Assembly: GCA_951406725.2 (NCBI GenBank)
Contig: OX597833.1
Span: 61,628,001-61,692,000 of the forward strand
Direction: 5' to 3'
Source: Octopus vulgaris
Taxonomy: Eukaryota
DNA: 64,000 nucleotides
The stretch's first letter is position 1, and every line of letters starts with the position of its first letter. This document shows positions 6,039-42,251 of the stretch, one piece after another. The translations under genes were made by a program, and so were the position numbers. The notes beneath the pieces are model-generated. The model saw only the letters and a list, made by a program, of their open reading frames with translations, was not told where the DNA came from and made no database searches.

Positions 6039-6047
6039 TTTGTGTCC

Positions 6048-6276
6048 TCATCGACAACCATGATTGTCACACGCTGATGAAAGGTAAACACCTTGAAACT
6101 CGGGTACGTGTGTATCATGTGTTGAAGACGGGGAGGATGACACCCCTTCACAAATACTGAGAGGACACAGATAGTGTGTCTATAGCCAGCTGGAGGAGAT
6201 ACCTTCCTGTGGCTACAAACTACAGTAGCATCCACCCTTATGGGTTAGCCATATTCAAATGGCAAATATGCATCAC
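6048..6276 (-). repeat. Right arm of 229-bp inverted repeat
   Basis: Reverse complement of 3768-3996. Confidence 0.95.
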
Positions 6277-6745: not shown

Positions 6746-7185
6746 ATATATATATATATATACATGTAAATTTAAATTTAAAATAATAAGAGTCAAAAAT
6801 TGAATATCAATTTGATTAGTAAGAATTTAAAACCAGTGGTGTAGCATATTAGACCATAGCGGATCTTCTAGCAGAATGGATGTCCAGTTACTGCCCTCCC
6901 TGTTATATAATAGTTTCAGTATTTAAGTGAAAGTATCTGACATTACAACAGAGAAATGTTTTTCTTTCACTTTTGACACGTAATACTGAAATAGTAGAGA
7001 AGATACGATATTGCTGTTGGCTCGCCCTAGGCAAGAAGTTTTTTTTTTTTTTGGCTCATGACACTACATGGACCCTAATCAAGTCTAGCAGAATGTATGT
7101 CCAGTTACAGTTCATCCCTGTTACATAATAGTTTCATTTTAATAGTTTCAATATTAAAGTGAAAGTATCTGACATTACAATAGAG

Positions 7186-8190
7186 GAATCTTTTCTGTTT
7201 GATGGACGGAATTTTCTAGTTAACTAAACAATTTCAAACTTCGTATACTGGTAGAATGTGTCAAAAGAAAACATTATTGTAAACAAAATTGAAAACAAAA
7301 TTGTAATTCGTAACTTAAACGTAGTTTAATTTTACGAATTTTAACTCATGAAATCGCAGCATTCGAGCTCAAATTATTTACTGCGTCTAAAAACTCACAC
7401 ACACACGTCTTATTCATCCTTGTCTCTTCTGTCTTCTACATGTGCTAGAAATAACAGCTATATCTCATCAATCGATGAATTTCGTCGCCCAATAAAAATA
7501 TTAACGATATTTTTTGAATATTTTCTTTACTTTTTTTTACCATGGTTTTGAAGGGCCAGAAACAACAAAAACAAAACAATAATATGCCTAAATCGGTCTC
7601 GCGCGTGGAGTGTGAGTAGTATTGTAAAAATTTGCGAAATATTTTTTCATAAAAGGATGCCCCAGCTTGTCGGAAGCTGTGATATAAATTGGGAAAAAAA
7701 TCCTCGACACCAGTGCGTAATTGGTACTTAATTTATCGACCCCGAAACGATGAAACATTGACCCCTTCCCTTCTGGTTTATTTACCTTTTGTGCAAATTT
7801 GTTGCGGCAAGTGGCAAAACACGATCGTGTATGTGTGCGTATGTGTGAGTACGTATATGTCCGTTTGTATGTGTGTGTACGCTTATATATTAATTACTAT
7901 GTGCTTGTGCAAATGTATATGCATGTGTTTGAGAGAGAGTGTGTGTGTGTGTCGTGCGTCTGCTATATTTCTTTATCAATATCGATAACGCAGCAATGCT
8001 GGGATTTCATTGGTTAAAATTCGAAGATGTTGGGATTTCATTGGTTAAAATTCGTAAAATTAAACTACGTTTAAGTTACAAATTACAATTTTGTTTACAA
8101 TAATGTTTTCTTTTGACACATTCTACCAGTATACGAAGTTTCAAATTGTTTAGTTAACTAGAAAATTCATCCATCAAACAGAAAAGATCC
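7186..8190. mobile_element. Non-autonomous TIR DNA transposon (Merlin-like), ~150-bp TIRs, 8-bp TSD CAATAGAG
   Basis: 7186-7345 is the reverse complement of ~8044-8190. CAATAGAG flanks both sides. An empty paralogous site lies at ~6938-6990. Duplicated at ~27801-28774. Confidence 0.75.
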
Positions 8191-8760
8191 CAATAGAGAG
8201 ATGTTTTACTTTCACTTTTGACACGTAATACCGGTTAAACCAGTATTCGAGTAGGTCAATGCGGAAGTAAAATGTTTTTACAGAAGTCTTTCACTTTTAC
8301 TCATTTAGTTGGTGACATTAACGGGCGTTGATATTATTATCTGAGATTCCCAAAACAGTTTTTATTATTTCTTAATTATTTTCCCTCTTCAATCATTGGT
8401 TAAAATTCGTAAAATTAAACTACGTTTAAGTTACAAATTACAATTTTGTTTACAATAATGTTTTCTTTTGACACATTCTACCAGTATACGAAGTTTCAAA
8501 TTGTTTAGTTAACTAGAAAATTCCGTCCACCAAACAGAAAAGATCCCAATAGAGAGATGTTTTTCTTTCACTTTTGACATGTGATATCGATTCACCAGTA
8601 TTCGAGTAGGTCAATGCGGAAGTAAAATGTTTTTACAGAAGTCTTTCACTTTTACTCATTTAGTTGGTGACATTAACGGGCGTTGATATTATTATCTGAG
8701 ATTCCCAAAACAGTTTTTATTATTTCTTAATTATTTTACTTCTCCAATCTCGACTGTTTT
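8035..8760 (+). repeat. ~360-bp tandem repeat (2 units) made of the transposon right TIR plus flank
   Basis: cattggttaaaattcgtaaaatt...gatcccaatagag...ctttcactttt recurs with a period of ~357 bp. Confidence 0.88.
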
Positions 8761-9065
8761 ACTTTATTAATCCCTTCACAACTTCCAGCATTCCAATAGG
8801 ACCTGGTTTCCAGAGAGGAACACTTGCACAAAATGTGACACACTCTCTGTATATAATATTCGTTGCCATATATTTACCCTTCTGAGAAGCTTGGATAGAG
8901 ATTGGATATAGATATTGACTGTTATTATTCATTATATCATTTCTACAAATTGACCTTTCTTCATTTCACGAATACAACAGAAAGCATAATTTCACAAAAA
9001 GAAAACGTACAAATTTTGTTGTCCAAAGAAAATTTGCCTTTTTATACACACACAGCTATAAAGGA

Positions 9066-9116
9066 ATGGCTGAAGAAATGCAGAAAATAACTGGGGAAAT
9101 GCAGGAACTTCTACTG
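9066..9116 (+). CDS. Putative first coding exon of TPR gene copy A (MAEEMQKITGEMQELLL)
   Basis: ATG at 9066, 51 nt, strong donor CTG|gtgagt. Phase 0 matches the acceptor at 17996. Conserved at 29315. Confidence 0.65.
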
Positions 9117-9164
9117 GTGAGTATATCAATATATACACTCGCTTGAACAAATGTACACTCTTTA

Positions 9165-9495
9165 CTCTCTCTTTTACTTGTTTCAGTCATTTGACTGCGG
9201 CCATGCTGGAGCACCGCCTTTAATCGAGCAACTCGACCCCGGGACTTATTCTTTTGTAAGCCCAGTACTTATTCTATCGGTCTCTTTTGCCGAACCGCTA
9301 GGTAACGGGGACATCGGTTGTCATGCACACACACTCAAACATATACATATATACGACGGGCTTCTTTCAGTTTCCGTTTACCAAATCACAAGGCTATAGT
9401 AGAAGACACTTGCCCAAGATGCCATGCAGTGGGACTGAACCCGGAGCCATGTGGTTGGTAAGCATGCTACTTACCACACAGCCACTCCAGCGCCT
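9165..9495 (-). mobile_element. SINE family A (internally deleted)
   Basis: Same head and tail as other family A copies; duplicated at ~29415-29743. Confidence 0.8.
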
Positions 9496-9506
9496 ATATA
9501 TATATA

Positions 9507-12500
9507 TCGTCCCAGATGCGATAACACGTGTTCTGCGTAACTTATCAAGTCTGACAACTTCCGACAGTGTACAAAAGCGTGCTGGACGGTTTCATCGTCC
9601 AACCCGCATCTTGGACAAGTCGGTGGCACTGAAATTCCGTGCCGCGATAACTTCTCGCGAACAGGTAAAGCATTCCTATAACACTGCCAGGCCAGGGATC
9701 TTTGGAAATTATCCAAATACCCCGTCCTGAAAGTCTTTTTAAACAGGTTGGTAAGCTGGTCTTCGTCAAACCCCAGAGCCCCTCCTAGGACGTCGTCGTT
9801 CTTTGCCTCTACCAGCCTGCTATAAAATACCGAGGTGGTATTTCCGCAGCCGGCCTTGCCTGCCTTGTGGATCAGCGTGAGTGCCTGTCGGCACTCCTTT
9901 TGCCATAAAGTCAGATTCCGTCTTTTGATGCGACCGGGTTTAAAATTCACTAAGGAAGCCGGTCTCGGGAAAAATTCCCCTGCCAGCGGACTCCACACCT
10001 TATCACCCTCCAGGTGGTGCCAGAGATGCTTCAGCCTCAACGCATGCCTGCGCATCATCAACCAAGGCATTCCTAACCCACCCTTTAACGGTTCCTGGCA
10101 GCAAATGGAGCGCCTCACAAGTGGCTTTCCTCCCTTCCACAAAAAGCGGAAAAGGATTCGCTCCAACTTGCTAAGCCATGAATCGGGGTAAGGGACAGCG
10201 GTCAGGCGGTAAGTGATTACAGATGCAATGAACATCTGCGCCACCTCCGCCCTTCCTTTCAAGGACAGAGACCTTCCGGACCAGGTCCGGTACTATGGCC
10301 TCCACCTTGTTCGTCACCTCACTCCAATTCCTCTCCGTTTGGGAGTCTGACCCAAACCAAACTCCTAGCAACTTAACACTGGACGATATCGACTTGCTCC
10401 TCCAGGTGCCGAGGCGCAAGCCAACCGACTTGTCCTTGTTAACCCTTGCTCCTGCCACCGCCTCGTATCCTCTGATAGCATCTTCTACACAAGGTAGCTG
10501 GGCCTCATTGGACACGATGAGGGTGACGTCATCCGCATAAGCAGTAACCGTCCTCCCACCTCCGATCTCATCCGGGTTACTTCCCAGCCTCTCCAACTTT
10601 CGCAGCAATGGCTCGAGAGCCAACACGTATAAAAGTGGTGACAAGAGGCACCCTTGACGAACTGAACATTCGATCGAAAACGGTTCCGTTAGGTATCCGT
10701 TTATCTGGACGGTGGACTTGATGCCGTTATACATAGCGGAGATCCAACCGCGAAATTCAGGGCCCAGTCCAGCCGCTTCGAGGACCGACGCCAGGTACTT
10801 ATGGTCTACCCTATCGAACGCTTTACTTTGGTCTAAATGGACCATTACCCCGCCCTTGCCGGTTAATTTACCCACCCTATCTAAGGTGTAGCGTATAAGG
10901 TGAAGATTGTCCTGGATCGACCTGCCTGGAATTGCACATGTCTGTGCTTTCCCTACAAGTTTCTCCACGACAATCGTCAACCTTTTTGCCAACACCTTGG
11001 CCAAAATCTTTAACTCTACATTAAGTAGAGTTATGGGCCTGTAATTACTAATGTTATCCCCCTTGCTCGGGTCTTTCTGGATTAGCGTCACCACTCCCCG
11101 GCTTACAGAACTGGGAATTCTCCCATTCTGCTGCCAGTTCGCGTAGACGCCTGCCATTATTCCCCCGAACAAGTCCGGCATACTTTGGTAAAACTCGTAG
11201 GGCAGACCATCCAACCCCGGCGACTTCTCCCCGGCGCATCCAGCCAGTATCCCCTCTATCTCCGCGGGAGTGATCGCTCCTTCACAGCACTCCACCTCAC
11301 GCCCCGAGAGCCGCGGTCCGCCGGCTAGGAAGTCCTTTAAGGCCCTCCCCCGTTCCGGCGCCACACCACCCCCGAACACGCGGGCGAAATGATGGTGAAG
11401 AAACTTTTGCATCTCCTCCTGTCCATAGATCTTTTGTCCCTGTTCGTCAGTTAAAGACTTGATTGAAGCTTTGTTACCTCTCTGACTCTCCACTCGACGG
11501 GCCCATCCGGCAACGTTAATACCTTCTCGTTTCCCAGCGCGTAGCTTAGCTCTGACTCTGCAACCTTCGTGTTTGGAGTTAAGGTGACGGTACAATACCG
11601 TCCTTGCCGCCATCACTCCGGATGCAGAGCCAGCTTCCATTGCCTCGTTTAGATTCTTAACTAAATTGTCCTCTATCCTAGACCTATCTAACCTTAGCTG
11701 ATTGCTAAATCTAATGGACTCTGAACGAATGGCTCTTTTGAGGGAGTGCCACCATCTATTGTTAATGATGGTGCCACACAATGCCCTCTGTACTAACACC
11801 TTAATCCGGGTACGGAAGTCTTCACAATTCAAAATAGACTTGTTCAGCTTCCAGTACCCGGGTCCCTGTCTATGGCACTTATCTAATTGCACCCTACAAG
11901 TCACAAATTTGTGATCCGTGTAAGGCACAATGTGAAACTGTGGACAACTAAACGTATCCTTATCTCTTTTCCTAACGAATATCCGATCTATATACGATGT
12001 GTGAGCCGTCGTTGTTACTCCACGTCCACTGTTAACGGTCCACTAGATCAAAGCTCTCTAGTAGACCCTTGAGGCTAGGTTTCCCCTTCCTATTGGTTGA
12101 GCCAACACTGTCGACCCGCGCTTCAAGGACAGTGTTAAAGTCCCCTACTAAGACTACCGTTTTCGACGTCGCTAAAAAGGGCTCCAGATTCCGAAAAAAC
12201 CCGCCTGCCTACACTCATTCGGAGCGTAGACAGCTACCAACCTGAAGGACTGTTTACTTACGTGGGTCACATCCAGAACGACCAGCCTGCCTTCTGGGTC
12301 CAGAAAGACAGTACTTACCTGCAAGTCCAAGCTCTTCCTGATAAGGACTGCCACGCCTCTTCCTCTTCCTCGGCTAGGAGAAATAAATTTCTCAAAACCA
12401 TTTAGAAGAGGCGAGAACGCTTGGGCCCCGTTCATCTTGGACTCGGTTACAATAGCTACATCCACTCCGTGTGTCGTGAGGTCGTTCAGGAAATAAATTT

Positions 12501-13083
12501 GTTTCCATTTCGACCCCATTCCACGCACATTTACGCAACCCAGCTTTGCCATTGTCGGTGAGAGAAAAAATAAACAAACTTACGGTTGGGACAGGGAGCA
12601 TGGCAGTTTAAATCTGCCTGCTTCCCCTTCTTCCTCCCTTGTGGTCCTGCAGGGCTCTGTGGTCGTAGGTGTGGTTGCCGGGGTTATAATAAGTTTACCT
12701 CCAGTATTTCCTTTGTTACATCTCTTATAAGATTATTCTTTAAATGTTCTTGTAGTGTTTTTTCCTTCCACTCGTCTTCCTTTATTTTTGCGAAGCGAGT
12801 GGTTGATTTTGTGTCTGTAGACTTACTGAATAGTTTAACTTTTGAAAATTTGAAATATTTGTACCCCTATCGTTCTTCTCGTCAAATGCTATAATCTTAT
12901 CATTTTTTTTAACAATTTTTTCAAATCTTGTTTTATGGGAGGGGCTTGGCGAACTGTGTTCCAATGAATATAGTGCCGTGGGGGTAGGGCTGGGGAATTT
13001 GTTTTGTATGTATGTCTGCGGTGTTTGCTGATTTTTTCTTTGTTTGGGGAGGGGAGTCCAGGGTGTTATCTTTTTTTCTTTTT
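9507..13083 (-). mobile_element. L1/Tx1-clade LINE, near-complete ORF2 (APE-RT-zf) with frameshifts, 3'-truncated; lies antisense in the TPR gene intron
   Basis: APE motifs GCVNVRG, VAVYAP, YTDHKF; RT motifs KSPGLDGLPYEFY, NYRPITLLN, DQSKAFDRV, VRQGCLLSPLLY, YADD; C-terminal CxxC...HxxxxC. Confidence 0.95.
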
Positions 13084-14558
13084 CAAATTGTTTAGTTAAC
13101 TAGAAAATTCCGTCCACCAAACAGAAAAGATCCCAATGGAGAGATGTTTTACTTTCACTTTTGACATGTGATATCGATTCACCAGTATTCGAGTAGGTCA
13201 ATGCGGAAGTAAAATGTTTTTACAGAAGTCTTTCACATTTACTCATTTAGTTGGTGACATTAACGGGCGTTGATATTATTATCTGAGATTCCCAAAACAG
13301 TTTTTATTATTTCTTAATTATTTTCCCTCTTCAATCTCGACTATTTTACTTTATTAATCCCTTCACAACTTCCAGCATTCCAATAGGACCTGGTTTCCAG
13401 AGAGGAACACTTGCACAAAAAGTGACACTCTCTCTATATAATATTCGTATATAATATTCGTTGCCATATATTTACCATTCTGAGAAGCTTGGATAGAGAT
13501 TGGTTACAAATTTAAGTTACAAATTACAATTTTGTTTACAATAATGTTTTCTTTTGACACATTCTACCAGTATACGAAGTTTCAAATTGTTTAGTTAACT
13601 AGAAAATTCCGTCCACCAAACAGAAAAGATCCCAATAGAGAGATGTTTTACTTTCACTTTTGACACGTAATACCGGTTAAACCAGAATTCGAGTAGGTCA
13701 ATCCGGATATCACATGCTTTCAGAGAATTCTTTCACTTTTACTCATTTAGTTGGTGACATTAACGGGCGTTGATATTATTATCTGAGATTCCCAAAACAG
13801 TTTTTATTATTTCTTAATTATTTTCCCTCTTCAATCATTGGTTGAAATTCGTAAAATTAAACTACGTTTAAGTTACAAATTACAATTTTGTTTACTATTA
13901 TGTTTTCTTTTGACACATTCTACCAGTATACGAAGTTTCAAATTGTTTAGTTAACTAGAAAATTCCGTCCACCAAACAGAAAAGATCCCAATAGAGAGAT
14001 GTTTTACTTTCACTTTTGACACGTAATACCGGTTAAACCAGAATTCGAGTAGGTCAATCCGGATATCACATGCTTTCAGTGAATTCTTTCACTTTTACTC
14101 ATTTAGTTGGTGACATTAACGGGCGTTGATATTATTATCTGAGATTCCCAAAACAGTTTTTATTATTTCTTAATTATTTTCCCTCTTCAATCATTGGTTA
14201 AAATTCGTAAAATTAAACTACGTTTAAGTTACAAATTACAATTTTGTTTACAATAATGTTTTCTTTTGACACATTCTACCAGTATACGGAGTTTCAAATT
14301 GTTTAGTTAACTAGAAAATTCCGTCCATCAAACAGAAAAGATCCCAATAGAGAGATGTTTTACTTTCACTTTTGACATGTGATATCGATTCACCAGTATT
14401 CGAGTAGGTCAATGCGGAAGTAAAATGTTTTTACAGAAGTCTTTCACTTTTACTCATTTAGTTGGTGACATTAACGGGCGTTGATATTATTATCTGAGAT
14501 TCCCAAAACAGTTTTTATTATTTCTTAATTATTTTACTTCTCCAATCTCGACTGTTTT
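13082..14558 (+). repeat. ~360-bp tandem repeat array (about 4 units) including a copy of the sequence just upstream of exon 1
   Basis: Units match 8035-8760; 13336-13502 repeats 8745-8902. Confidence 0.88.
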
Positions 14559-15091
14559 AGAATTTTAGAATTTTACTAACACAACATAATAAGAGAAGAA
14601 TAACCGATCCTAGATTTGGTAGCGTAGCATCATCTAGTTATTAGCTTTCGAAAATGTTGTGGGGAAAATGAATTCCATTGTTTATTTAAATGGTTTTTCA
14701 GTTTCATTAAACACACATACACAAATGTATATACACTCTCACACGTTCTCCAGAGTCTACAGTGGGGTATACATACTCACGCACGCACACAGTCGAGTAA
14801 TGGTAAAGGGTGTGCGTGTGCACACGCACACACGCAGAGTCAGAAACGCACGCATACACTTGATCGGGCGTGCGCACACAAAAACACACACACATACACT
14901 CACACACAGAATGTCTTCAATCTTATGCATTGTCAACTTGCGAAATACTTCTTACGTAGAATGTTTCCACAATAGAAAAGTTTCAAATTTTCTAAATAAC
15001 CGATCCAATTTCTTTTCGAACCTATGATAAATTTGATAACCTGATATTATCCAAGCAATTACCCAAGCTACTAGAGGTCAAAAACTCCCTG

Positions 15092-17995: not shown

Positions 17996-19478
17996 GATGA
18001 AGGAAGTAGAAGAGAATCGTATAGGGAGAGAATTAAAAGATTTCCAAATGTAATGGAAGAAAGTTTTGAGAAAACCGAAGAAGATTGGTCGTCTTTCTAC
18101 AAAAAAGTAGAAAATTCGTTGAATAAAGATATCTCATTTGGTTTAGAAGATGAGATTCGTCAAAAGAACGTCCTAGTATATATTCTTTGGCAGATGAACG
18201 ATAAAATTTCCAGCTGAAAAATTAGCCAATGAAGTTCGAGAAAAGAAGCCAGATAACCTGGTGGCATTAACCAACCTTGCATTCATTCATTTGTACGATG
18301 GAAATATCCCTGAGGTAAGAAACCTTTTGGATAATCTAAGTAATCTTGAAGAAAGAGAAAATTTCTTGCTGATAGAAGCAGAAGGCAAAAGAAATGTTGC
18401 TTATTGTTTAGCTACTATATCTTTTGAAGATCATGAAAGAGCTGTCGAACTTTACAAAGAGTCTCTCAACGTTTGTCCGGATGATTATCTGTGTATGTTT
18501 TCCATTGCTCTGTTGCAATATCGTTGTTTAAGAAAGAACATAGATAAAGAGAAAAGATGTGAAAATATTAAGGAATCAATACAGTACTTAGAGAAAATAC
18601 GATGTGCTTTTCGACAACATAATAACAAGGCCCTAATGGGAAGAACATTAGCATTGATTGGTTTGTTTCAACTTAGACCTTATAATTTTCATAGTCAAGT
18701 AGCTGAAGAGTATTTTCAGAGAGCTCTTGATATTTCCCCTGATGACCCCTATGTTTTGGAGAAAAGTGGCAATTATTATATACTTTCAAAGCAGCTTGAA
18801 AAAGCAAGAAAAGTGCTTGAAAAAGCAATTAAAAAAAAGGTAACACCATATTCTCATCGTCAGCTTGGATTACTTTATCTAAGAATTGAGGACCCTACAT
18901 ATACATATGTCCCAATGAACAAACAATTCTCAAAAGAAACGAATGAATTTGCGAAATTTTTAAAACATGCTCAAAATATTCCTCCTAGAGAAAGGAAAGA
19001 GTTAATCAACAAAGCTGAATATCACTTTCAACAAGCTCTTGAACTTTCTTATAGATATTCACCTGCTCTCTATGATATCATTATATTATATATGTCTTTG
19101 AAAGAATATGACAATGCCAGGAAGTATTGTGAAAGATTTAAAGCAGATAACACAAGGCAAGATGTTAATTTTTACATTTCGTTTGGAAAATTATGTTTTA
19201 AAGAAGCAGATGTAAAAAATGATGAAGAAGAAAAAGATCAATTAAGATGTACAGGAATGGATTGGTTTGTTCTGGCTCTTAAATCTGCTGTAAAATTTCT
19301 TCCTTTCGACAAAGACCTGATAGAAATTTGGGAGATAAAGGAAATAATACTTGAATTATATGAGTATGGAAATGGAAATACTGAATACAAAAAATTTGTT
19401 TTGGAATTCATTCAGTCAGTAGAAGACCTTGCCAATGACAAAGCGTTCCAAAATATACTTCACAAGAGTGAATTATAA
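17996..19478 (+). CDS. Large second exon of TPR-repeat (IFIT/TTC22-like) gene copy A; +1 frameshift near 18205-18212 (pseudogene or sequencing error)
   Basis: Acceptor ttttatttcag|GAT. TPR-type helices such as AVELYKESLNVCPDD, AEEYFQRALDISPDDPYV, ARKVLEKAI and AEYHFQQALEL. A 405-aa ORF plus an upstream 74-codon segment in another frame. Confidence 0.8.
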
Positions 19479-20104: not shown

Positions 20105-20107
<3 letters not shown>

Positions 20108-27322: not shown

Positions 27323-27377
<55 letters not shown>

Positions 27378-29314
27378 GTAAATTTAAATTTAAAATAATA
27401 AGAGTCAAAAATTGAATATCAATTTCATTTGTAAGAATTTAAAACCAGTGGTGTAGCATATAAGACCATAGCGGATCTTCTTCTAGCAGAATGGATGTCC
27501 AGTTACTGCCCTCCCTGTTATATAATAGTTTCAGTATTTAAGTGAAAGTATCTGACATTACAACAGAGAAATGTTTTTCTTTCACTTTTGACACGTAATA
27601 CTGAAATAGTAGAGAAGATACGATATTGCTGTTGGCTCGCCCTAGGCAAGAAGTTATTATTCTTTTTTGCTCATTACACCACATGGACCCTAATCAAGTC
27701 TAGCAGAATGTATGTCCAGTTACAGTTCATCCCTGTTACGTAATAGTTTCATTTTAATTGTTTCAATATTAAAGTGAAAGTATCTGACATTACAATAGAG
27801 GAATCTTTTCTGTTTGATGGACGGAATTTTCTAGTTAACTAAACAATTTGAAACTTCGTATACTGGTAGAATGTGTCAAAAGAAAACATTATTGTAAAAA
27901 AAATTGAAAACAAAATTGTAATTCGTAACTTAAACGTAGTTTAATTTTACGAATTTTAACTCATGAAATCGCAGCATTCGAGCTCAAATTATTTACTGCG
28001 CACACGTCTTATTCATCCTTGTCTCTTCTGTCTTCTACATGTGCTAGAAATAATAGCTATATCTCATCAATCGATGAATTTCGTCGCCCAATAAAAATAT
28101 TAACGATATTTTTTGAATATTTTCTTTATTTTTTTTTTTACCATGGTTTTGAAGGGACAGAAACAACAAAAACAAAACAATAATATGCCTAAATAGGTCT
28201 CGCGCGTGGAGTGTGAGTAGTATTGTAAAAATTTGCGAAATATTTTTTCATAAAAGGATGCCCCAGCTTGTCGGAAGCTGTGATATAAATTGGGAAAAAA
28301 ATCCTCGACACCAGTGCGTAATTGGTACTTAATTTATCGACCCCGAAACGATGAAACATTGACCCCTTCCCTTCTGGTTTATTTACCTTTTGTGCAAATT
28401 TGTTGCGGCAAGTGGCAAAACACGAACGTGTATGTGTGTGTGTACGCTTATATATTAATTACTATGTGCTTGTGCAAATGTATATGCATGTGTTTGAGAG
28501 AGAGAGAGAGAGAGAGTGTGTGTGTGTGTGTGTGTGTGTCGTGCGTCTGCTATATTTCTTTATCAATATCGATAACGCAGCAATGCTGGGATTTCATTGG
28601 TTAAAATTCGAAGATGTTGGGATTTCATTGGTTAAAATTCGTAAAATTAAACTACGTTTAAGTTACAAATTACAATTTTGTTTACAATAATGTTTTCTTT
28701 TGACACATTCTACCAGTATACGAAGTTTCAAATTGTTTAGTTAACTAGAAAATTCTCCAAAACAGAAAAGATCCCAATAGAGAGATGTTTTACTTTCACT
28801 TTTGACACGTAATACCGGTTAAACCAGTATTCGAGTAGGTCAATGCGGAAGTAAAATGTTTTTACAGAAGTCTTTCACTTTTACTCATTTAGTTGGTGAC
28901 ATTAACGGGCGTTGATATTATTATCTGAGATTCAAAACAGTTTTATTATTTCTAATTTTACAGTTTTATTATTTCTTAATTATTTTACTTCTCCAATCTC
29001 GACTGTTTTACTTTATTAATCCCTTCACAACTTCCAGCATTCCAATAGGACCTGGTTTCCAGAGAGGAACACTTGCACAAAAAGTGACACACTCTCTGTA
29101 TATAATATTCGTTGCCATATATTTACCCTTCTGAGAAGCTTGGATAGAGATTGGATATAGATATTGACTGTTATTATTCATTATATCATTTCTACAAATT
29201 GACCTTTCTTCATTTCACGAATACAACAGAAAGCATAATTTCACAAAAAGAAAACGTACAAATTTTGTTGTCCAAAGAAAATTTGCCTTTTTATACACAC
29301 ACAGCTATAAAGGA

Positions 29315-29365
29315 ATGGCTGAAGAAATGCAGAAAATAACTGGGGAAATGCAGGAAATTCTACTG
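29315..29365 (+). CDS. Putative first coding exon of TPR gene copy B (MAEEMQKITGEMQEILL)
   Basis: ATG at 29315, donor CTG|gtgagt, phase 0 matching the acceptor at 37078. Confidence 0.65.
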
Positions 29366-29756
29366 GTGAGTATATCAATACATACACTCGCTTGAACAAA
29401 TGTACACTCTTTACTCTCTCTTTTACTTGTTTCAGTCATTTGACTGCGGCCATGCTGGAGCACCGCCTTTAATCGAGCAACTCGACCCCGGGACTTATTC
29501 TTTTGTAAGCCCAGTACTTATTCTATCGGTCTCTTTTGCCGAACCGCTAGGTAACGGGGACATCGGTTGTCATGCACACACACTCAAACATATACATATA
29601 TACGACGAGCTTCTTTCAGTTTCCGTCTACCAAATCACAAGGCTATAGTAGAAGACACTTGCCCAAGATGCCATGCAGTGGGACTGAACCCGGAGCCATG
29701 TGGTTGGTAAGCATGCTACTTACCACACAGCCACTCCAGCGCCTATATATATATAT

Positions 29757-32700
29757 CGTCCCAGATGCGATAACACGTGTTCTGCGTAACTTATCAAGTC
29801 TGACAACTTCCGACAGTGTACAAAAGCGTGCTGGACGGTTTCATCGTCCAACCCGCATCTTGGACAAGTCGGTGGCACTGAAATTCCGTGCCGCGATAAC
29901 TTCTCGCGAACAGGTAAAGCATTCCTATAACACTGCCAGGCCAGGGATCTTTGGAAATTATCCAAATACCCCGTCCTGAAAGTCTTTTTAAACAGGTTGG
30001 TAAGCTGGTCTTCGTCAAACCCCAGAGCCCCTCCTAGGACGTCGTCGTTCTTTGCCTCTACCAGCCTGCTATAAAATACCGAGGTGGTGTTTCCGCAGCC
30101 GGCCTTGGCCTGCCTTGTGGATCAGCGTGAGTGCCTGTCGGCACTCCTTTTGCCATAAAGTCAGATTCCGTCTTTTGATGCGACCGGGTTTAAAATTCAC
30201 TAAGGAAGCCGGTCTCGGGAAAAATTCCCCTGCCAGCGGACTCCACACCTTATCACCCTCCAGGTGGTGCCAGAGATGCTTCAGCCTCAACGCATGCCTG
30301 CGCATCATCAACCAAGGCATTCCTAACCCACCCTTTAACGGTTCCTGGCAGCAAACGGAGCGCCTCACAAGTGGCTTTCCTCCCTTCCACAAAAAGCGGA
30401 AAAGGATTCGCTCCAACTTGCTAAGCCATGAATCGGGGCAAGGGACAGCGGTCAGGCGGTAAGTGATTACAGATGCAATGAACATCTGCGCCACCTCCGA
30501 CCTTTCCTTTCAAGGACAGAGACCTTCCGGACCAGGTCGGTACTATGGCCTCCACCTTGTTCGTCACCTCACTCCAATTCCTCTCCGTTTGGGAGTCTGA
30601 CCAAAACCAAACTCCTAGCAACTTAACACTGGACGATATCGACTTGCTCCTCCAGGTGCCGAGGCGCAAGCCAACCGACTTGTCCTTGTTAACCCTTGCT
30701 CCTGCCACCGCCTCGTATCCTCTGATAGCATCTTCTACACAAGGTAGCTGGGCCTCATTGGACACGATGAGGGTGACGTCATCCGCATAAGCAGTAACCG
30801 TCCTCCCACCTCCGATCTCATCCGGGTTACTTCCCAGCCTCTCCAACTTTCGCAGCAATGGCTCGAGAGCCAACACGTATAAAAGTGGTGACAAGAGGCA
30901 CCCTTGACGAACTGAACATTCGATCGAAAACGGTTCCGTTAGGTATCCGTTTATCTGGACGGTGGACTTGATGCCGTTATACATAGCGGAGATCCAACCG
31001 CGAAATTCAGGGCCCAGTCCAGCCGCTTCGAGGACCGTCGCCAGGTACTTATGGTCTACCCTATCGAACGCTTTACTTTGGTCTAAATGGACCATTACCC
31101 CGCCCTTGCCGGTTAATTTACCCACCCTATCTAAGGTGTAGCGTATAAGGTGAAGATTGTCCTGGATCGACCTGCCTGGAATTGCACATGTCTGTGCTTT
31201 CCCTACAAGTTTCTCCACGACAATCGTCAACCTTTTTGCCAACACCTTGGCCAAAATCTTTAACTCTACATTAAGGAGAGTTATGGGCCTGTAATTACTA
31301 ATGTTATCCCCCTTGCTCGGGTCTTTCTGGATTAGCGTCACCACTCCCCGGCTTACAGAACTGGGAATTCTCCCATTCTGCTGCCAGTTCGCGTAGACGC
31401 CTGCCATTATTCCCCCGAACAAGTCCGGCATACTTTGGTAAAACTCGTAGGGCAGACCATCCAACCCCGGCGACTTCTCCCCGGCGCATCCAGCCAGTAT
31501 CCCCTCTATCTCCGCGGGAGTGATCGCTCCTTCACAGCACTCCACCTCACGCCCCGAGAGCCGCGGTCCGCCGGCTAGGAAGTCCTTTAAGGCCCTCCCC
31601 GTTCCGGCGCCACACCACCCCCGAACACGCGGGCGAAATGATGGTGAAGAAACTTTTGCATCTCCTCCTGTCCATAGATCTTTTGTCCCTGTTCGTCAGT
31701 TAAAGACTTGATTGAAGCTTTGTTACCTCTCTGACTCTCCACTCGACGGGCCCATCCGGCAACGTTAATACCTTCTCGTTTCCCAGCGTAGCTTAGCTCT
31801 GACTCTGCAACCTTCGTGTTGGGTACGTACAATGTCCCCCATCACTCGGATGCACGGAAGTCTTCACAATTCAAAATAGACTTGTTCAGCTTCTTCAGTA
31901 CCCGGGTCCCTCTCTATGGCACTTATCTAATTGCACCCTACAAGTCACAAATTTGTGATCCGTGTAAGGCACAATGTGAAACTGTGGACAACTAAACGTA
32001 TCCTTATCTCTTTTCCTAACGAATATCCGATCTATATACGATGTGTGAGCCGTCGTTGTTACTCCAAGTCCACTGTTAACGGTCCACTAGATCAAAGCTC
32101 TCTAGTAGACCCTTGAGGCTAGTTTTCCCCTTCCTATTGGTTGAGCCAACACTGTCGACCCGCGCTTCAAGGACAGTGTTAAAGTCCCCTACTAAGACTA
32201 CCGTTTTCGACGTCGCTAAAAAGGGCTCCAGATTCCGAAAAAAACCCGCCTGCCTACACTCATTCGGAGCGTAGACAGCTACCAACCTGAAGGACTGTTT
32301 ACTTACGTGGGTCACATCCAGAACGACCAGCCTGCCTTCTGGGTCCAGAAAGACAGTACTTACCTGCAAGTCCAAGCTCTTCCTGATAAGGACTGCCACG
32401 CCTCTTCCTCTTCCTCGGCTAGGAGAAATAAATTTCTCAAAACCATTTAGAAGAGGCGAGAACGCTTGGGCCCCGTTCATCTTGGACTCGGTTACAATAG
32501 CTACATCCACTCCGTGTGTCGTGAGGTCGTTCAGGAAATAAATTTGTTTCCATTTCGACCCCATTCCACGCACATTTACGCAACCCAGCTTTGCCATTGT
32601 CGGTGAGAGAAAAAATAAACAAACTTACGGTTGGGACAGGGAGCATGGCAGTTTAAATCTGCCTGCTTCCCCTTCTTCCTCCCTTGTGGTCGTAGCTGGG

Positions 32701-32843
32701 GAGGGGCTTGGCGAACTGTGTTCCAATGAATACAGTGCCGTGGGGGTAGGGCTGGGGAATTTGTTTTGTATGTATGTCTGCGGTGTTTGCTGATTTTTTC
32801 TTTGTTTGGGGAGGGGAGTCCAGGGTGTTATCTTTTTTCTTTT
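29757..32843 (-). mobile_element. L1/Tx1-clade LINE ORF2, paralog of 9507-13083 with extra deletions
   Basis: APE ORF 32076-32597 (GDFN motif); RT ORF 30421-31545 with YADD. Confidence 0.94.
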
Positions 32844-33630
32844 TCAAATTGTTTAGTTAACTAGAAAATTCCGTCCACCAAACAGAAAAGATCCCAATGG
32901 AGAGATGTTTTACTTTCACTTTTGACATGTGATATCGATTCACCAGTATTCGAGTAGGTCAATGCGGAAGTAAAATGTTTTTACAGAAGTCTTTCACATT
33001 TACTCATTTAGTTGGTGACATTAACGGGCGTTGATATTATTATCTGAGATTCCCAAAACAGTTTTTATTATTTCTTAATTATTTTCCCTCTTCAATCTCG
33101 ACTATTTTACTTTATTAATCCCTTCACAACTTCCAGCATTCCAATAGGACCTGGTTTCAGAGAGAACACTTGCACAAAAGTGACACTCTCTTGTATATAA
33201 TATTCGTTGCCATATATTTACCATTCTGAGAAGCTTGGATAGAGATTGGTTACAAATTTAAGTTACAAATTACAATTTTGTTTACAATAATGTTTTCTTT
33301 TGACACATTCTACCAGTATACGAAGTTTCAAATTGTTTAGTTAACTAGAAAATTCCGTCCACCAAACAGAAAAGATCCCAATAGAGAGATGTTTTACTTT
33401 CACTTTTGACATGTGATATATGAGAGATGTTTACTTTCACTTTTGACATGTGATATCAAATTCACCAGTATTCGAGTAGGTCAATGCGGAAGTAAAATGT
33501 TTTTACAGAAGTCTTTCACTTTTACTCATTTAGTTGGTGACATTAACGGGCGTTGATATTATTATCTGAGATTCCCAAAACAGTTTTTATTATTTCTTAA
33601 TTATTTTACTTCTCCAATCTTGACTGTTTT
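32843..33630 (+). repeat. ~360-bp repeat array, shorter than in copy A
   Basis: Matches units at 13082-14558. Confidence 0.8.
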
Positions 33631-34899
33631 AGAATTTTAGAATTTTATCGTAACACAACCATAATAAGAGAAGAATAACCGATCCTAGATTTGGTAGCGT
33701 AGCATCATCTAGTTATTAGCTTTCGAAAATGTTGTGGGGAAAATGAATTCCATTGTTTATTTAAATGGTTTTTCAGTTTCATTAAACACACATACACAAA
33801 TGTATATACACTCTCACACGTTCTCCAGAGTCTACAGTGGGGTATACATACTCACGCACGCACACAGTCGAGTAATGGTAAAGGGTGTGCGTGTGCACAC
33901 GCACACACGCAGAGTCAGAAACGCACGCACACACTTGATCGGGCGTGCGCACACAAAAACACACTCACACACATACACACACACACACACTCACACACAG
34001 AATGTCTTCAATCTTATGCATTGTCAACTTGCCAAATACTTCTTACGTAGAATGTTTCCACAATAGAAAAGTTTCAAATTTTCTAAATAACCGATCCAAT
34101 TTCTTTTCGAACCTATGATAAATTTGATAACCTGATATTATCCAAGCAATTACCCAAGCTACTAGAGGTTAAAAACTCCCTGGGATCTTTTCGGTTTGAA
34201 CGGCAGTTTTTAACATAATTTCTAGGTAACTAAAAAAATTTAAACTTCGTATACTGGTAGAATGTGTTTATAAAACATCTTTTTCTCTTGGCTTTATTGA
34301 GAAAATTCTATAGTTTGTAAGATATTTGTTGTTTTTTTTCTTCAATTTCTGCAATTTCAACCAATCAGTGACGTCTATTGAGTTAAAAAGCATTGTGTGC
34401 CGTATGAATATGTCCCTCGTTTAAGAAACAGATTGGGTTTATTTACATTTGTGAAGAAAAAAAAAGATACCCTTCAACCACCCCTAACTAACCCTAACCC
34501 TAAAACAGATTGAAATGCAATAGATCGATACTAGGGTCATAATTTTGGGTGACAATTTCATATGAAACCGCTAGAAAAAACTGCCGTTCAAACCGAAGAG
34601 ATCCCAAGCTGCTGCTAGTCTTATGACCGCTACAACAGCAATCAAAAAGTTTCATTTTCTGTCGTGTTTTCGTGAGAAAAAAAAATGAACATCGAAGGGG
34701 AATAAATCTTTTATGGTTTGTGTATGATAGTTAAGGAAAGGTTGCCATGATTAATAAAACACGGGAGACAATATATACGTGTGTTCCACAGAGTAATTTC
34801 CCTTGAAATAAATTGTAAAATTCCTTTTCTCTGTATTAAAATCGAGGGCAGCGTTTATATCTCTAAGTTTTTAGTATAGTGATGCAATTTTATAGAAGA

Positions 34900-35271
34900 C
34901 TAGCAGTATAACCCGGCGTTGCTCGGGTTTCTTTCGACCCTTTAGGATTGGAATTTTTGAAAGCTACAAATTTTGCATTATGTAGCTTGTTATTCTCTGA
35001 ACATTTTTCTGGTAGAAATACACTGAAAAATGGCGACAGAGCAGTCAAAAAAAATCGTCAAAATTAGGGATTTTCATAGAAAAAAAGCACCTTTTTGATG
35101 TTAACATGCTCCGATTTGAATTTTTTCTTCTACGGAAGGAAGAGCAAGCCTTCTTCTATCATACTCTCAATTTTGGTCAACTTGTGCCGCAGGGTCTCAG
35201 AGGAGATAGTGTCAGTTGAAGGCTACCAAACCTGCCATACACAGACAACTTCAGCTTTATATAGAGAGAGA
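34900..35271 (-). mobile_element. Non-autonomous Helitron
   Basis: Paralog of 15809-16180. Confidence 0.8.
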
Positions 35272-35488
35272 TTAATTGTACAGAAATATATAATTTCGCT
35301 GCTTTTCGGAGACGCGCACACACACACATGTATGTATATATGAATATGTATAAATGTGTAGGTGAAAGTGTTTGTGTGCGTGTATATGTGTGTGTTATAT
35401 ACTTATAGGCTTGGTTGTGCGGTATAAAAGTTGTTTCTCAACCCTGTGCTACTGGGTTCGGTTTCAATTGTTTCAATTTCTGCCTATA

Positions 35489-36701
35489 CAGGGGTTGGAC
35501 AAAATAATGGAAACACCTTAACGTTTCAAACAAATTTATTTTAATATGGCAGTAATTTTGATATCTGGCAGTAATTACAAGTTGAATTCTATGAGATATG
35601 GACTTGTGCAAAGTTTGAATTCTTTCCAAAGGAATTTTTGTTCAAACAGTCTCCAGTTCTTGTAGTGATGATAGTGGAGGATATCGGCTCCTTCCTTATT
35701 TTTCTAAAATGCACCAATAAGTGTTCTATAATATTGAGACCTGGGGACTGTGGTGGCCATATAAGATGTTCAACCTCACTAAAATGTTCCTCGTACCATT
35801 CAGTAACAACTTTAGCTGTGTGAATTGGTGCATTATCATTCTGAAAGATTGCATTTCGCTCCGAAACAGTTCTGCAACCATTGGATGAATTTGATCAGAT
35901 AAAATGCTTCAATAATCTTGACTATTAATTCTGCCATGAAGGAAAAACATTGGGCCAGCAGATTTCCAAGATATAGCCCCCAAAGCTCATCATTGCAGAT
36001 CCTCTTCCGTGTTTAATAAAAGAAAGCAGTCTGGGTCAAATGCTTCTTTTGGCTGACTCCACAAGTACACTCAGTGGTCGGAAAAAAGGTAAAGGATGAC
36101 TCGTCCAAGAAAATAACATTCATCCACTGCTCTGGGGACCAATTCTGTAGATTTTTTACTCCACTCTAAACGCTTTGCAACGTTTGTTTTTGAAAGTAGT
36201 GGTTTTCTTAACAGTAGCCCTCCCTTGAAATCCTGCCTTTTGTAGCTCCCGGTGAACTGTTCTTGAGGAAACTGGGTTCTCTCTACAGTAATTTAGGGAG
36301 CTGTACTTTTGTGATTCTTTCTAATAATTCGCATAAGAATCCAACGGTCCCTATCTGGAAGTTTTGGTTTTCTTCTGGAGTTTTGTTTCAACGAGGAGGT
36401 TTTTTCCTCTTTCTCAAAGGCTGTCATTACTTTCAAGACTTCTTGATACACCAAACATTTCAGCTGTTTTCGTTATGCTAGCGCCTGCTATACGAGCACC
36501 AACAATTTGACCGCTTTGAAAGTCCGATAGATCTGTCATCTTAATGAATTTTAATTACCTTATTTTGATGATATCTGAAAAGAAAAAGCAATTTTAGCAA
36601 AACATATTAAGCAACACTAATAATAAATCAAAAAACGTTTTGACGGTTTTATAAATATCTCAAAATTATGATGTTATGATGCTAGGTGTTTCCATTATTT
36701 T
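35489..36701 (-). mobile_element. Degenerate Tc1/mariner transposon
   Basis: Paralog of 16389-17619 with the same TIR. Confidence 0.88.
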
Positions 36702-37077
36702 TGCGCGTGTGTGTATGTGTGTGTGAGAGAGTGTTATATCATATTATATTACATAATATAAGTGATCTACAACAGCCTGTCCATCTTGTTGTTGTTGTTG
36801 TTGTTGTTGATGATGATGATGATGATGATGCATTTATCACTCTGTCAAACACACCTCTTACATTGTTCTCTCACTTATTTACGCTCAGTTTTCTGTGCGC
36901 ATATTAAAAACATCGAACATTCGGATCCAAAATGCTCAGCCACTACATCAACCATATCAGACTAGGAAGGTTTGACATTGTTTCATTAACTAAAAATCGA
37001 AAATTGGAGAATATTTTTTTGTCAATGGTAATGTGTGATATCATATTTCATACGCAATCATTTTGTTTTTATTTCAG

Positions 37078-38562
37078 GATGAAGGAAGTAGAAGAGAATC
37101 GTATAGGGAGAGAATTAAAAGATTTCCAAATGTAATGGAAGAAAGTTTTGAGAAAACCAAAGAAGATTGGTCGTCTTTCTACAAAAAAGTAGAAAGTACG
37201 TTGAATAATGATATCTTATTTGGTTTAGAAGATGAGATTCGTCAAAAGAACGTCCTAGTATATATTCTGTGGCAGATGAACGATAAATTTTCAGCTGAAA
37301 AATTAACCAATGAAGTTCGAGAAAAGAAGCCAGATAACCTGGTGGCATTAACCAACCTTGCATTCATTCATTTGTACGATGGAAATATCTCTGAGGTAAG
37401 AAACCTTTTGGATAATCTAAGTAATCTTGAAGAAAGAGAAAATTTCTCGCTGATAGAAGCAGAAGGCAAAAGAAATGTTGCTTATTGTTTAGCTACTATA
37501 TCTTTTAAAGATCATGAAAGAGCTGTCGAACTTTACAAAGAGTCTCTCAACGTTTGTCCAGACGATTATCTGTGTATGTTTTCTATTGCTTTGTTGCAAT
37601 ATCGTTGTTTAAAAAAGAACATAGATAAAGAGAAAAGACGTGAAAATATTAAGGAATCAATACAGTACTTAGAGAAAATACGATGTGCTTTTCCACGCCA
37701 TATTGATAAGGGCCTAATGGGAAGAACATTAGCATTGATTGGTTTGTTTCAACTTAGTCGTTATAATTTTCATAGTCAACCAGCTAAAAAGTATTTTCAG
37801 AGAGCTCTTGATATTTCCCCTGATGACCCCTATGTTTTGGAGAAAAGTGCCAATAATTATATACTTTCAAATCAGCATGAAGAAGGAAGAAAATTGCTTG
37901 AAAAAGCAATTGAAATAAAGGCAACACCATATTCTCATCATCAGCTTGGATTACTTTATCTAAGAATTGAATACACCAAAATATACATATGTCCCAATGA
38001 ACAAACAATTCTCAAAAGAAACGAATGAATTTGCGAAATTTTTAAAACATGCTCAAAGTATTCCTCATAGAGAAAGGAATGAGTTAATCAACAAAGCTGA
38101 ATATCACTTTCAACAAGCTCTTGAACTTTCTCATGAATATTCACCTACTCTCTATGATATCATTTTATTATATATGTCTTTGAAAGAATATGACAATGCC
38201 AGGAAGTATTGTGAAAGATTTAAAGCAGATAACACAAGGCAAGATGTTAATTTTTACATTTTGTTTGGAAAATTATGTTTTAAAGAAGCAGATGTAAAAA
38301 ATGATGAAGAAGAAAAAGATCAATTAAGACATACAAGAATGGATTGGTTTGTTCTGGCTCTTAAATCTGCTGTAGAATTTCTTCCTTTCAACAAACACCT
38401 GATAGAAATTTGGGAGATAAAGGAAATAATACTTGAATTATATATGAGTATGGAAATGGAAATACTGAATACAAAAAATTTGTTTTGGAATTCATTCACT
38501 CAGTAGAAGACCTTGCAAATGATAAAGAGCTCCAAAATATACTTCACAAGAGTGAATTATAA
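37078..38562 (+). CDS. Large second exon of TPR-repeat (IFIT/TTC22-like) gene copy B; frameshifts near 37970-37981 and 38440
   Basis: Acceptor atttcag|GAT. ORFs 37063-38028 and 37967-38506 jointly align to copy A. The stop codon at 38560-38562 aligns with the copy A stop. Confidence 0.8.
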
Positions 38563-39189
38563 AAGATAAATTGTGTTCATACTTTTCTTATTACTTTCTT
38601 TATTGATAATACTCAACAATATTTTGAAATTCATTGTTATATATCTCACGTTTTCTGAAGTAATACCAAACACGTTTATCTAAAGCTAAATTTTAAAAAT
38701 CATATAAATTTAGACTACTCCTTTCTTTGAAACACAAGATGAATGTAGCAAAGAATTCTACAGGAAATATTACTGCCTTTGTAATGGATGTGGCTCTGAA
38801 ACCAACGTTGAAATGACATCAGAGCATTCAAAGGATGACGTCATAACTAACTTTCATTTTGACATATTTTAACATCCCCAAACAGTGAAGAAGTGGCAGA
38901 AAATATTAGAATGAATCTAGAATATACTTTTGCTTGAAAGTTCCATTTGATAATCGTGACGACATATTGGGATGATGTAAAACTGGAAACCTTTGCATTA
39001 TACTGAAACATCGTTGGAATATTGGAATTCTATAAGTAACAATCAAAAATTACTAATTTACACAAAAGACACCAAGTAAATCCTTGAAGATTGACAACCT
39101 AAGTAAGGACGATATTTTACTATCAGGAAGCATGAAGCCAGAAATTCCAAAACATTTAAAAAGTTTTCCTCAATTTAAATGGCAATGTG

Positions 39190-39220
<31 letters not shown>

Positions 39221-42180: not shown

Positions 42181-42251
<71 letters not shown>

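What the first reader, a model, noticed from the sequence alone, without database searches (positions are those of the whole stretch)
6920..14558. Transposon-end-derived tandem repeat multiplies IRF/ISRE-like motifs around exon 1 of the TPR gene
Seen: CTTTCACTTT (reverse complement AAAGTGAAAG) occurs twice per ~360-bp unit, e.g. ~8209, 8288, 8565, 8643, 13152, 13651, 13730, 14007, 14086, 14363, 14441. AAGTGAAAGT also occurs at ~6925 and ~7157, and AGTTTCATTTT at ~7130. The unit is the right TIR of a Merlin-like element plus its flank, amplified upstream of exon 1 and again in intron 1. Copy B has fewer units. Established: AAAGTGAAAGT is the IRF1/2 IRF-E consensus, and molluscs have IRFs. Inference: a copy-number-variable immune enhancer array.
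Basis: partly seen in the sequence, partly recalled or inferred. Interest (0 to 1): 0.7.

Follow-up and report, generated by a model that had tools for sequence, protein, structure and literature searches.

The report
Octopus IFIT-like promoter keeps IRF site
The repeat copies the start region of an octopus gene related to the vertebrate antiviral IFIT proteins, including one DNA word kept across the gene family that likely binds IRF immune regulators; the transposon end adds no such word, and the extra copies are likely a by-product.

Summary
The motifs and the ~355-bp units are at the stated places. The gene is IFIT-like (IFIT1/5 are the best structural matches, Z about 25), one of about 22 copies on this chromosome. 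The scan noted that family before, on other DNA. The Merlin-type MITE end carries no motif: 11 of 11 paralogous promoters that keep the insertion site lack the MITE yet hold the word-bearing flank. The two words per unit differ in origin. Word 1 is an inverted-repeat arm of a Helitron family (479 matches genome-wide) and is intact in 4 of 11 paralogues. Word 2 (8644) is an ancestral promoter site. It aligns with a full GAAAGTGAAAGT in a 58%-identical clade, and AAAGTGAAA lies 250-420 bp before the ATG in all four clades (background 4-5% per window). The genome has IRF1/2-type genes with the GAAA-reading residues. So the promoter is likely IRF-responsive, which is untested. The array is a recent rearrangement confined to this gene pair. 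Nothing shows it is adaptive or variable between individuals, and both copies are frameshifted in the assembly.

The parts
6760..7185 (-). Truncated, internally duplicated fragment of a non-autonomous Helitron family; source of the words at 6925, 6965, 7130 and 7156. It continues after the MITE at 8191-8231 (word 1).
   Evidence: Matches dispersed copies on other chromosomes; 479 matches to a 39-nt core, reversed control 0; termini
7178..7185 (+). Left target-site duplication CAATAGAG
7186..8190 (.). About 1.0-kb non-autonomous DNA transposon (MITE) with ~175-bp TIRs and an 8-bp TSD, Merlin-type; contains no AAAGTGAAA
   Evidence: Dispersed full-length copies; 8-bp TSD in 7 of 10 copies with both ends found, of 12 examined; TIR; no word in 7165-8209
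8191..8198 (+). Right target-site duplication CAATAGAG
8038..8749 (+). Upstream tandem array: two 355-bp units (MITE right end + Helitron remnant + proximal promoter module)
8566..8574 (-). Word 1 (AAAGTGAAA), Helitron-derived; copies at 8210, 13153, 13652, 14008, 14364
   Evidence: intact in 4 of 11 paralogous promoters
8616..8623 (+). ETS-type word GCGGAAGT (label recalled), 27 nt before word 2; same word and spacing in the 73-Mb clade; copies at 8261 and 14414
   Evidence: kept in 6 of 12 close promoters
8644..8652 (-). Word 2 (AAAGTGAAA), ancestral promoter IRF-E candidate, 422 bp before the ATG; copies at 8289, 13731, 14087, 14442
   Evidence: Aligned with GAAAGTGAAAGT of the 73-Mb clade; AAASYGAAA kept in 12 of 12 close promoters; region found only at promoters of this family
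8880..8888 (+). GAS-like TTCTGAGAA; a common word (29 TTCNNNGAA in the window), weak on its own
   Evidence: kept in 10 of 12 close promoters
9066..9116 (+). Coding part of exon 1 (17 codons), GT donor at 9117
   Evidence: same exon in annotated P0004; a guessed-RNA contig aligns 8976-9117 and then leaves the stretch
9507..13080 (-). Rearranged, 5'-truncated LINE with RT domain in intron 1, specific to copies A and B
   Evidence: RVT_1 E=6e-33; absent from paralogous introns
13081..13506 (+). Intronic copy of the proximal promoter (8494-8908), with word 2 mutated
13511..14559 (+). Intronic tandem array, about 3 units
   Evidence: the 8905-to-8425 junction with TTACAAA is present in a contig of run X15
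17996..19478 (+). Exon 2 of the IFIT-like TPR gene, copy A; +1 frameshift at 18203 in the assembly
27358..43733 (+). Copy B of the whole gene: 1 upstream unit, 1 partial + 1 intronic unit; frameshifts at 37967 and 38437

Best explanation
This is the promoter and first intron of an octopus IFIT-like gene; its one family-wide conserved word (AAAGTGAAA, 422 bp before the ATG) likely binds an IRF1/2-type factor and would make the gene inducible by an antiviral signal, while the tandem units are likely a by-product of recent local rearrangement. Order of events, read from paralogues: (1) an ancestral promoter carried the IRF-E word next to an ETS-type word (shown by alignment); (2) a Helitron fragment came to lie about 500 bp upstream in the ancestor of the close clade and brought further AAAGTGAAA words as arms of its inverted repeat (shown); (3) in the ancestor of copies A and B a Merlin-type MITE inserted into that Helitron (shown by empty sites and TSD); (4) a 355-bp segment from inside the right TIR to the promoter module was duplicated at a 2-nt microhomology, and promoter pieces were copied into intron 1 beside a LINE insertion (structure shown, mechanism inferred as template switching or unequal exchange); (5) unit number then diverged between A and B. 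IRF binding, induction and any effect of the extra copies are inferred, not shown.
For: Gene identity: IFIT5 is the top PDB profile hit (E=3e-13); the AlphaFold model of the close homologue P0004 (pLDDT 82) has IFIT1/5 as the first 13 Foldseek rows and Z 23-25 over 400-426 residues against 20.2 or less for non-IFIT chains; NCBI names 9 of 14 homologues IFIT-like. Site conservation: the window promoter aligns with the 73-Mb clade (z 17.8) with word 2 opposite GAAAGTGAAAGT, and the flanks alone place it there. AAAGTGAAA also lies at -254 (60.19-Mb type) and -316 (8.8-Mb clade, 4 of 5 promoters), where the flanks align weakly (z 4.5) or not at all (z 0.6). Background is 27 of 582 windows of 480 bp; per-promoter shuffle P is 0.03-0.08. 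A decayed promoter remnant at 25973 has lost the word. Two of three IRF genes keep R-C-x-x-N-S and match IRF1/2 best. Oyster IRFs activate ISRE reporters (PMC5557890, passages) and vertebrate IFIT promoters carry ISREs (PMC3688568, passages). Origin: empty site in 11 of 11 paralogues; Helitron family; array confined to A and B.
Against: No binding or induction data. In this clade the word has only one GAAA core (TAAAAGTGAAAGA), weaker than the two-core sites of the 73-Mb and 60.19-Mb clades. Among close paralogues the word is not better conserved than its flanks (2 of 9 positions vary against 24 of 92), although both changes keep AAASYGAAA. With the looser AAANNGAAA pattern the per-promoter P values are unremarkable (0.37-0.64 for at least one match). 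The 480-bp window and the 9-mer were chosen after seeing the data. The 8.8-Mb site is on the opposite strand and 1 of 5 copies lacks it. The links between exon 1 and exon 2 in the 60.19-Mb and 8.8-Mb clades are by position only. The transcription start is not mapped. Both window genes are frameshifted in the assembly.
Confidence: 0.6

Rival explanations
1. One reading: the units form a selected, copy-number-variable IRF enhancer array that tunes expression of this gene pair.
For: The unit does carry the conserved ETS+IRF module, so copy A has 5 intact copies of word 2 and copy B 2, against 1 in paralogues. IRF1 affinity rises with the number of AAGTGA units (PMC7819612, passage). The MITE pushed the upstream Helitron words 1 kb away, so duplication could compensate (inference). 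An intronic junction is present in another data set.
Against: Amplification is confined to one recent gene pair out of about 22 loci. It is tied to MITE and LINE breakpoints. About 45% of each unit is motif-free TIR. One intronic word 2 is mutated in both copies and two intronic units of copy A have lost the ETS word. Both reading frames are broken in the assembly. No between-individual variation was shown.
Confidence: 0.15
2. The word is not an IRF activator site: it is an AT-rich word kept by descent or chance, or it is bound by a repressor with an overlapping motif such as PRDM1/Blimp-1 (overlap recalled, not tested).
For: AAAGTGAAA occurs in 4-5% of background windows and AAASYGAAA in 12-14%; it arises in an unrelated satellite and in a Helitron hairpin; no excess conservation among close paralogues.
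Against: It is present at the proximal promoter of four clades down to 39% protein identity, as two-core GAAAGTGAAA in two of them. The product of shuffle P values for the three clades not used for discovery is about 1e-4 (my product; not fully independent).
Confidence: 0.17
3. The A/B pair and part of the arrays are assembly artefacts (two haplotypes placed in tandem, long-read errors).
For: Non-coding A/B divergence is only 0.3-1.5%, with many 1-2-bp indels. The frameshift base at 18203 is absent from contigs of three runs (these collapse paralogues).
Against: Units differ by 3-24 substitutions that match variants found in paralogues. The intronic junction exists in run X15. Exon 2 differs by 7.8% in its middle, and A-like and B-like proteins are both annotated in O. 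sinensis (P0003, P0004).
Confidence: 0.08

Closest known systems
Vertebrate IFIT1/IFIT5 genes and their ISRE promoters (PDB 5w5i, 4hor, 3zgq; PMC3688568, passages read)
   Same: IFIT-type TPR fold over nearly the whole length; short first exon and long second exon; clustered, expanding family; IRF-type word in the proximal promoter.
   Different: Exon 1 codes 17 residues, not just the ATG; about 16% identity; one single-core IRF-E in this clade instead of 2-3 ISREs; molluscs have no recognisable interferon (oyster statement in PMC5557890); induction untested. PMC3688568 holds IFITs and their ISREs to be jawed-vertebrate innovations.
MER41 and RLTR30B retroviral LTRs co-opted as interferon-inducible enhancers (Chuong et al. 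2016, seen only as summarised in PMC7778262, passage)
   Same: A dispersed element family carries an immune transcription-factor word and sits next to an immune gene.
   Different: Here the donor is a Helitron, not an LTR and not the Merlin MITE; the words are arms of an inverted repeat; one arm decays in 7 of 11 paralogues; no binding data.
Merlin / IS1595-type DNA transposons (PMC8101967, passages read)
   Same: TIRs starting GG, length within 24-462 bp, 8-bp TSD; Merlin transposases are abundant in the genome.
   Different: Non-autonomous; no complete autonomous partner with both TIRs was found; it supplies breakpoints, not motifs.
Oyster CgIRF1/2/8 acting on ISRE and CgIFNLP promoters (PMC5557890, PMC13524488, passages read)
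   Same: Molluscan IRFs recognise vertebrate-type ISREs; octopus IRF1/2-type genes keep the recognition-helix residues.
   Different: No cephalopod IRF target was found in my searches; the octopus IRFs were only compared by sequence.

Membership tests
IFIT family | IFIT-type TPR fold over the whole protein | tested here: met
   (model of the close homologue P0004)
IFIT family | Short first exon, long second exon | tested here: met
   exon 1 codes 17 residues rather than ATG+2 nt
IFIT family | Groups with vertebrate IFITs rather than TTC22 or other TPR proteins in a tree | not tested
   No tree built; feature search ranks IFIT and TTC22 clusters alike, 0.96-0.97
IFIT family | Binds 5'-ppp or cap-0 RNA; induced by virus | not testable with these tools
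   RNA-binding residues not examined; no induction data
ISRE (two GAAA cores, GAAANNGAAA) | Two GAAA cores 2 nt apart in the units | tested here: not met
   none in the units; met in the 73-Mb and 60.19-Mb clade promoters
IRF-E (IRF1/2 site) | AANNGAAA / AAGTGA / GTGAAA consensus (PMC7819612) | tested here: met
IRF-E (IRF1/2 site) | Conserved at the promoter position across the family | tested here: met
   word 2 only; word 1 intact in 4 of 11
IRF-E (IRF1/2 site) | Bound and activated by IRF | not testable with these tools
   needs EMSA, CUT&Tag or reporter
Merlin MITE | TIRs with terminal GG and 8-9-bp TSD | tested here: met
   the window copy's left end reads GA, other copies GG
Merlin MITE | Shares ends with an autonomous DDE_Tnp_IS1595 element | tested here: inconclusive
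   1 of 15 transposase loci has a related terminus 630 bp upstream of a 298-aa ORF; no second TIR within 1.5 kb
Helitron (non-autonomous) | 5' TC with TATATAAA-like start; 3' hairpin and CTAG (PMC12001565, passage) | tested here: met
   TC-side subterminal block in 42 of 46 copies; hairpin-CTAG end in 3 of 46 within the 1-1.5 kb held
Helitron (non-autonomous) | Link to a Rep/helicase-coding element | not tested
   not searched
Transposon-derived immune enhancer (MER41-like) | Motif carried by the element consensus | tested here: met
   met for the Helitron; not for the MITE, which has no word
Transposon-derived immune enhancer (MER41-like) | Inducible binding, loss of induction on deletion | not testable with these tools
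   needs chromatin and editing data

The most novel reading that the evidence does not exclude
IRF control of IFIT-type genes is older than interferon: octopus IFIT-like genes keep an IRF site at their promoters across clades down to 39% identity, a Helitron family with at least 479 copies has spread further IRF-type words through the genome and into this promoter, and tandem amplification of the ETS+IRF module tunes the newest, fast-evolving gene pair.
Probability: 0.2. Interest if true: 0.78.

Novelty: new variant of a known kind. Interest (0 to 1): 0.48.

Why it matters
IFITs and their ISRE promoters have been described as arising with interferon in jawed vertebrates (PMC3688568). A mollusc family with the IFIT fold and a conserved IRF-type promoter site would mean the IRF-to-IFIT link is older than interferon, or arose twice. 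It gives a specific 9-bp site and natural variants (one-core, two-core, amplified, decayed) for a direct reporter test, and a candidate readout for antiviral signalling in cephalopods. The array itself matters less: it shows how stacked Helitron, MITE and LINE events can multiply a real promoter module and mimic an enhancer array.

Tried and rejected
Shuffle enrichment in the window was rejected as evidence because the copies are duplicates. Motifs inside the MITE TIR: none. ISRE in the units: none. Excess conservation of word 2 among close paralogues: not seen. The composite pattern SCGGAWGT-N17-21-YTTTCACTTT gives 15 genome matches, 14 at this family, reversed control 7; it was fitted on these promoters, so it is not counted as support. 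Viperin as a positive-control promoter: no match in the genome, which is no proof of absence. Regions upstream of the IRF genes gave no interpretable cluster because starts are unknown. Expression: no RNA holder on record; contigs cannot give level or start. A 282-nt contig of run X16 (type not on record, chimeric) covers 8828-9071, only a hint that transcripts reach 8828. No unit-to-unit joint was listed in X15 or X17, but cover has holes, so copy number between individuals is open. Six short primers found nothing in the two supplements of the O. vulgaris haemocyte paper PMC4199593, whose file 1 was cut when stored. The poly(I:C) study in Amphioctopus (PMC11252417) does not mention IFIT in its main text and its supplements could not be read; they may hold induction data. 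No autonomous Merlin with both TIRs in 15 loci. Literature searches that showed no cephalopod IFIT promoter paper, listings only: 'IFIT mollusc invertebrate', 'octopus tetratricopeptide interferon' (29), 'Helitron IRF binding sites interferon' (30), 'IFIT cephalopod' (95).
Full report
Observation. Tandem Repeats Finder gives 8038-8749 (355 bp x 2.0) and 13511-14547 (356 bp x 2.9). The whole gene is present twice: A from about 6750 to 24700 and B from about 27360 to 43730. A has six MITE-end/flank junctions and B has three. AAAGTGAAA occurs 28 times against 2.0 expected, but that counts duplicates. No unit contains GAAANNGAAA, so these are single-core IRF-E-type words (consensus AANNGAAA, AAGTGA, GTGAAA in PMC7819612, passages read), not strict ISREs.

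The gene. The organism is an Octopus species, judged from annotated homologues. Exon 1 codes 17 residues (ATG 9066, donor 9117) and exon 2 runs 17996-19478. The best long natural PDB match of the single protein is IFIT5 (E=4e-6); a profile of 11 family members puts IFIT5 first (E=3e-13) with IFIT1 close behind. A model of the close homologue P0004 (pLDDT 81.8) has IFIT1/5 in the first 13 Foldseek rows and Z 23-25 over 400-426 residues, against 20.2 for the best non-IFIT chain. Nine of 14 homologues are named IFIT-like by NCBI. A feature search ranks IFIT and TTC22 clusters alike, and I built no tree, so I call it IFIT-like, not IFIT. The genome search gave 27 matches that fall into about 22 loci on C20: a close clade (57.8-58.0, 60.2 and 61.6 Mb), three at 73 Mb (57-59% identity) and five at 8.8 Mb (32-40%). 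Earlier scan notes had already described this family and the 14-codon exon at 8.8 Mb.

The MITE. 7186-8190 is a dispersed element of about 1 kb with ~175-bp TIRs, flanked by CAATAGAG at 7178 and 8191. An 8-bp TSD (7 or 8 of 8 matches) is seen in 7 of the 10 copies where both ends were found, of 12 examined, two of them the window's own. This fits Merlin (terminal GG, 8-9-bp TSD; PMC8101967, passages read). Merlin transposases are abundant (150 scored matches); one of 15 loci has a related terminus 630 bp upstream of a 298-aa ORF, without a second TIR in the DNA held. The MITE holds no AAAGTGAAA. All 11 paralogous promoters that keep this region have the empty site. So the words pre-date the MITE and are not transposon-end-derived.

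Word 1 and the upstream words. The first 44 bases of the flank match many chromosomes. Sixteen fetched hits show a repeat family that also covers 6760-7185; a 39-nt core has 479 matches with up to 2 mismatches, reversed control 0. Of 46 copies, 42 show the same subterminal block leading to a TATA-rich end that reads TC-TATATATAAAA on the other strand, and 3 reach a hairpin-CTAG end within the DNA held. These are canonical Helitron termini (PMC12001565, passage read). The two words in the element are opposite arms of an ~75-nt inverted repeat. In paralogous promoters the left arm is kept in 10 of 11 and the right arm (word 1) in only 4 of 11.

Word 2. The stretch 8590-8910 matches only promoters of this family and one orphan on C8. 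AAASYGAAA is kept in 12 of 12 close promoters, 11 with the exact 10-mer; against this, the word varies as often as its flanks there (2 of 9 against 24 of 92 positions). The stronger test is deeper divergence. The window promoter aligns with the 73-Mb promoter (z 17.8 against shuffles); word 2 falls on ACTTTCACTTTCAC (GAAAGTGAAAGT on the other strand), with GCGGAAGT 27 nt upstream in both, and masking the words leaves the position unchanged. All three 73-Mb genes have it at -366 to -374; the 60.19-Mb promoter has GAAAGTGAAA at -254; four of five 8.8-Mb promoters have AAAAGTGAAACT at -316 on the other strand, and the fifth has a TA microsatellite there. The 8.8-Mb promoter does not align with the window's (z 0.6). 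Background in 288 kb of fetched octopus DNA, with the Helitron core masked, is 27 of 582 windows (4.6%), or 20 of 466 when GC-matched. Dinucleotide shuffles give P of 0.037, 0.080, 0.027 and 0.049 per clade; the product for the three clades not used for discovery is about 1e-4, with the caveats that the window and word were chosen after looking and that the 73-Mb site is homologous. With AAANNGAAA the signal is weak. A contig from a run with another species label matches 8610-8671 without a difference (X17). A decayed promoter remnant at 25973-26150 has lost the word (one case).

The reader of the site. Three IRF genes are present. Two carry FRCALNSLPD in the recognition helix and match IRF1/2 domains best; R82, C83, N86 and S87 are the GAAA contacts (PMC7819612). 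Oyster IRF2 and IRF8 are induced by poly(I:C) and activate ISRE reporters in human cells (PMC5557890, passages read); oyster IRF1 is reported to bind ISRE (PMC13524488, passages read). Vertebrate IFIT promoters carry ISREs, mostly within 200 bp of the start and up to ~800 bp in zebrafish (PMC3688568, passages read).

The arrays. The unit joins the promoter at 8392 to the inside of the right TIR at a 2-nt microhomology. In paralogues, intron 1 runs from the SINE through about 810 bp of other sequence to the equivalent of 14561. In A and B that stretch is replaced by a truncated LINE, a copy of 8494-8908 and the units. Units differ by 3-24 substitutions in patterns shared with paralogues, and the junction 8905-TTACAAA-8425 stands in a contig of run X15, so the array is probably real. 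No other locus shows the amplification (lower bounds). A has 5 intact copies of word 2 and B has 2. A and B differ by 0.3-1.5% in non-coding DNA but 7.8% in mid exon 2. A has a +1 frameshift at 18203 and B has +1 and +2 at 37967 and 38437; contigs of three runs lack the extra base at 18203, but they collapse paralogues, so assembly error and true damage both remain possible.

Verdict. Shown: positions, anatomy, order of insertions, two separate origins of the words, family-wide presence of word 2, IFIT-like fold, IRF1/2-type genes. Inferred: IRF binding, induction, and neutrality of the array. I score it 0.48, a new variant of a known kind. The family is already annotated and was noted by this scan, the array is probably incidental, but the conserved IRF site bears on whether IRF control of IFIT-type genes pre-dates interferon, and it can be tested directly. 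The PRDM1 overlap and the ETS label are recalled, not taken from a call.

Noticed in passing
exon 2 of paralogues L003, L005, L006, L008, L010; window 18600-19000 vs 37682-38083: Amino-acid change is concentrated in the middle of exon 2: dN exceeds dS in 9 of 10 pairs for codons 181-330 (up to 0.113 against 0.050), and A/B differ by 7.8% there against about 1% in non-coding DNA. Suggests diversifying selection or gene conversion.
   Followed up: partly
G000:C8:113854000-113857400 (L038, L124): Orphan copy of the Helitron remnant, promoter, exon 1 and start of intron 1 on another chromosome, with no exon 2 found.
   Followed up: partly
window 25973-26150: About 70% identical decayed copy of the proximal promoter directly after a MITE end, with the IRF word lost.
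   Followed up: partly
window 51400-52315: 114-bp satellite with AAAGTGAAA in 6 of 8 units, showing the word can be multiplied by unrelated repeats.
   Followed up: no
SINE copies, e.g. window 9365; 37 in 288 kb of fetched loci: The abundant octopus SINE carries GGAAACTGAAAG, a GAAANNGAAA match, which inflates ISRE scans in this genome.
   Followed up: no
L139 (G000:C11:87617094-87620480): Intact 298-aa Merlin transposase ORF beside two diverging MITE-family ends separated by a 76-bp inverted spacer.
   Followed up: partly
window 23200-24090 and about 42250-43150: Block of about 17% GC in both gene copies; possibly of mitochondrial origin, not tested.
   Followed up: no
G000 whole genome: No viperin match (TIGR04278) was found; exon-wise search, not proof of absence.
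   Followed up: no
window 4254-6066, 9507-13080, 29756-32840: Three near-identical (97-99%) pieces of one LINE family, suggesting recent activity or local copying.
   Followed up: no
window 56524-56901, minus strand: An exon-like frame (…SGQSCPEWTIIELQGDLEMRY…) of another gene; not identified.
   Followed up: no
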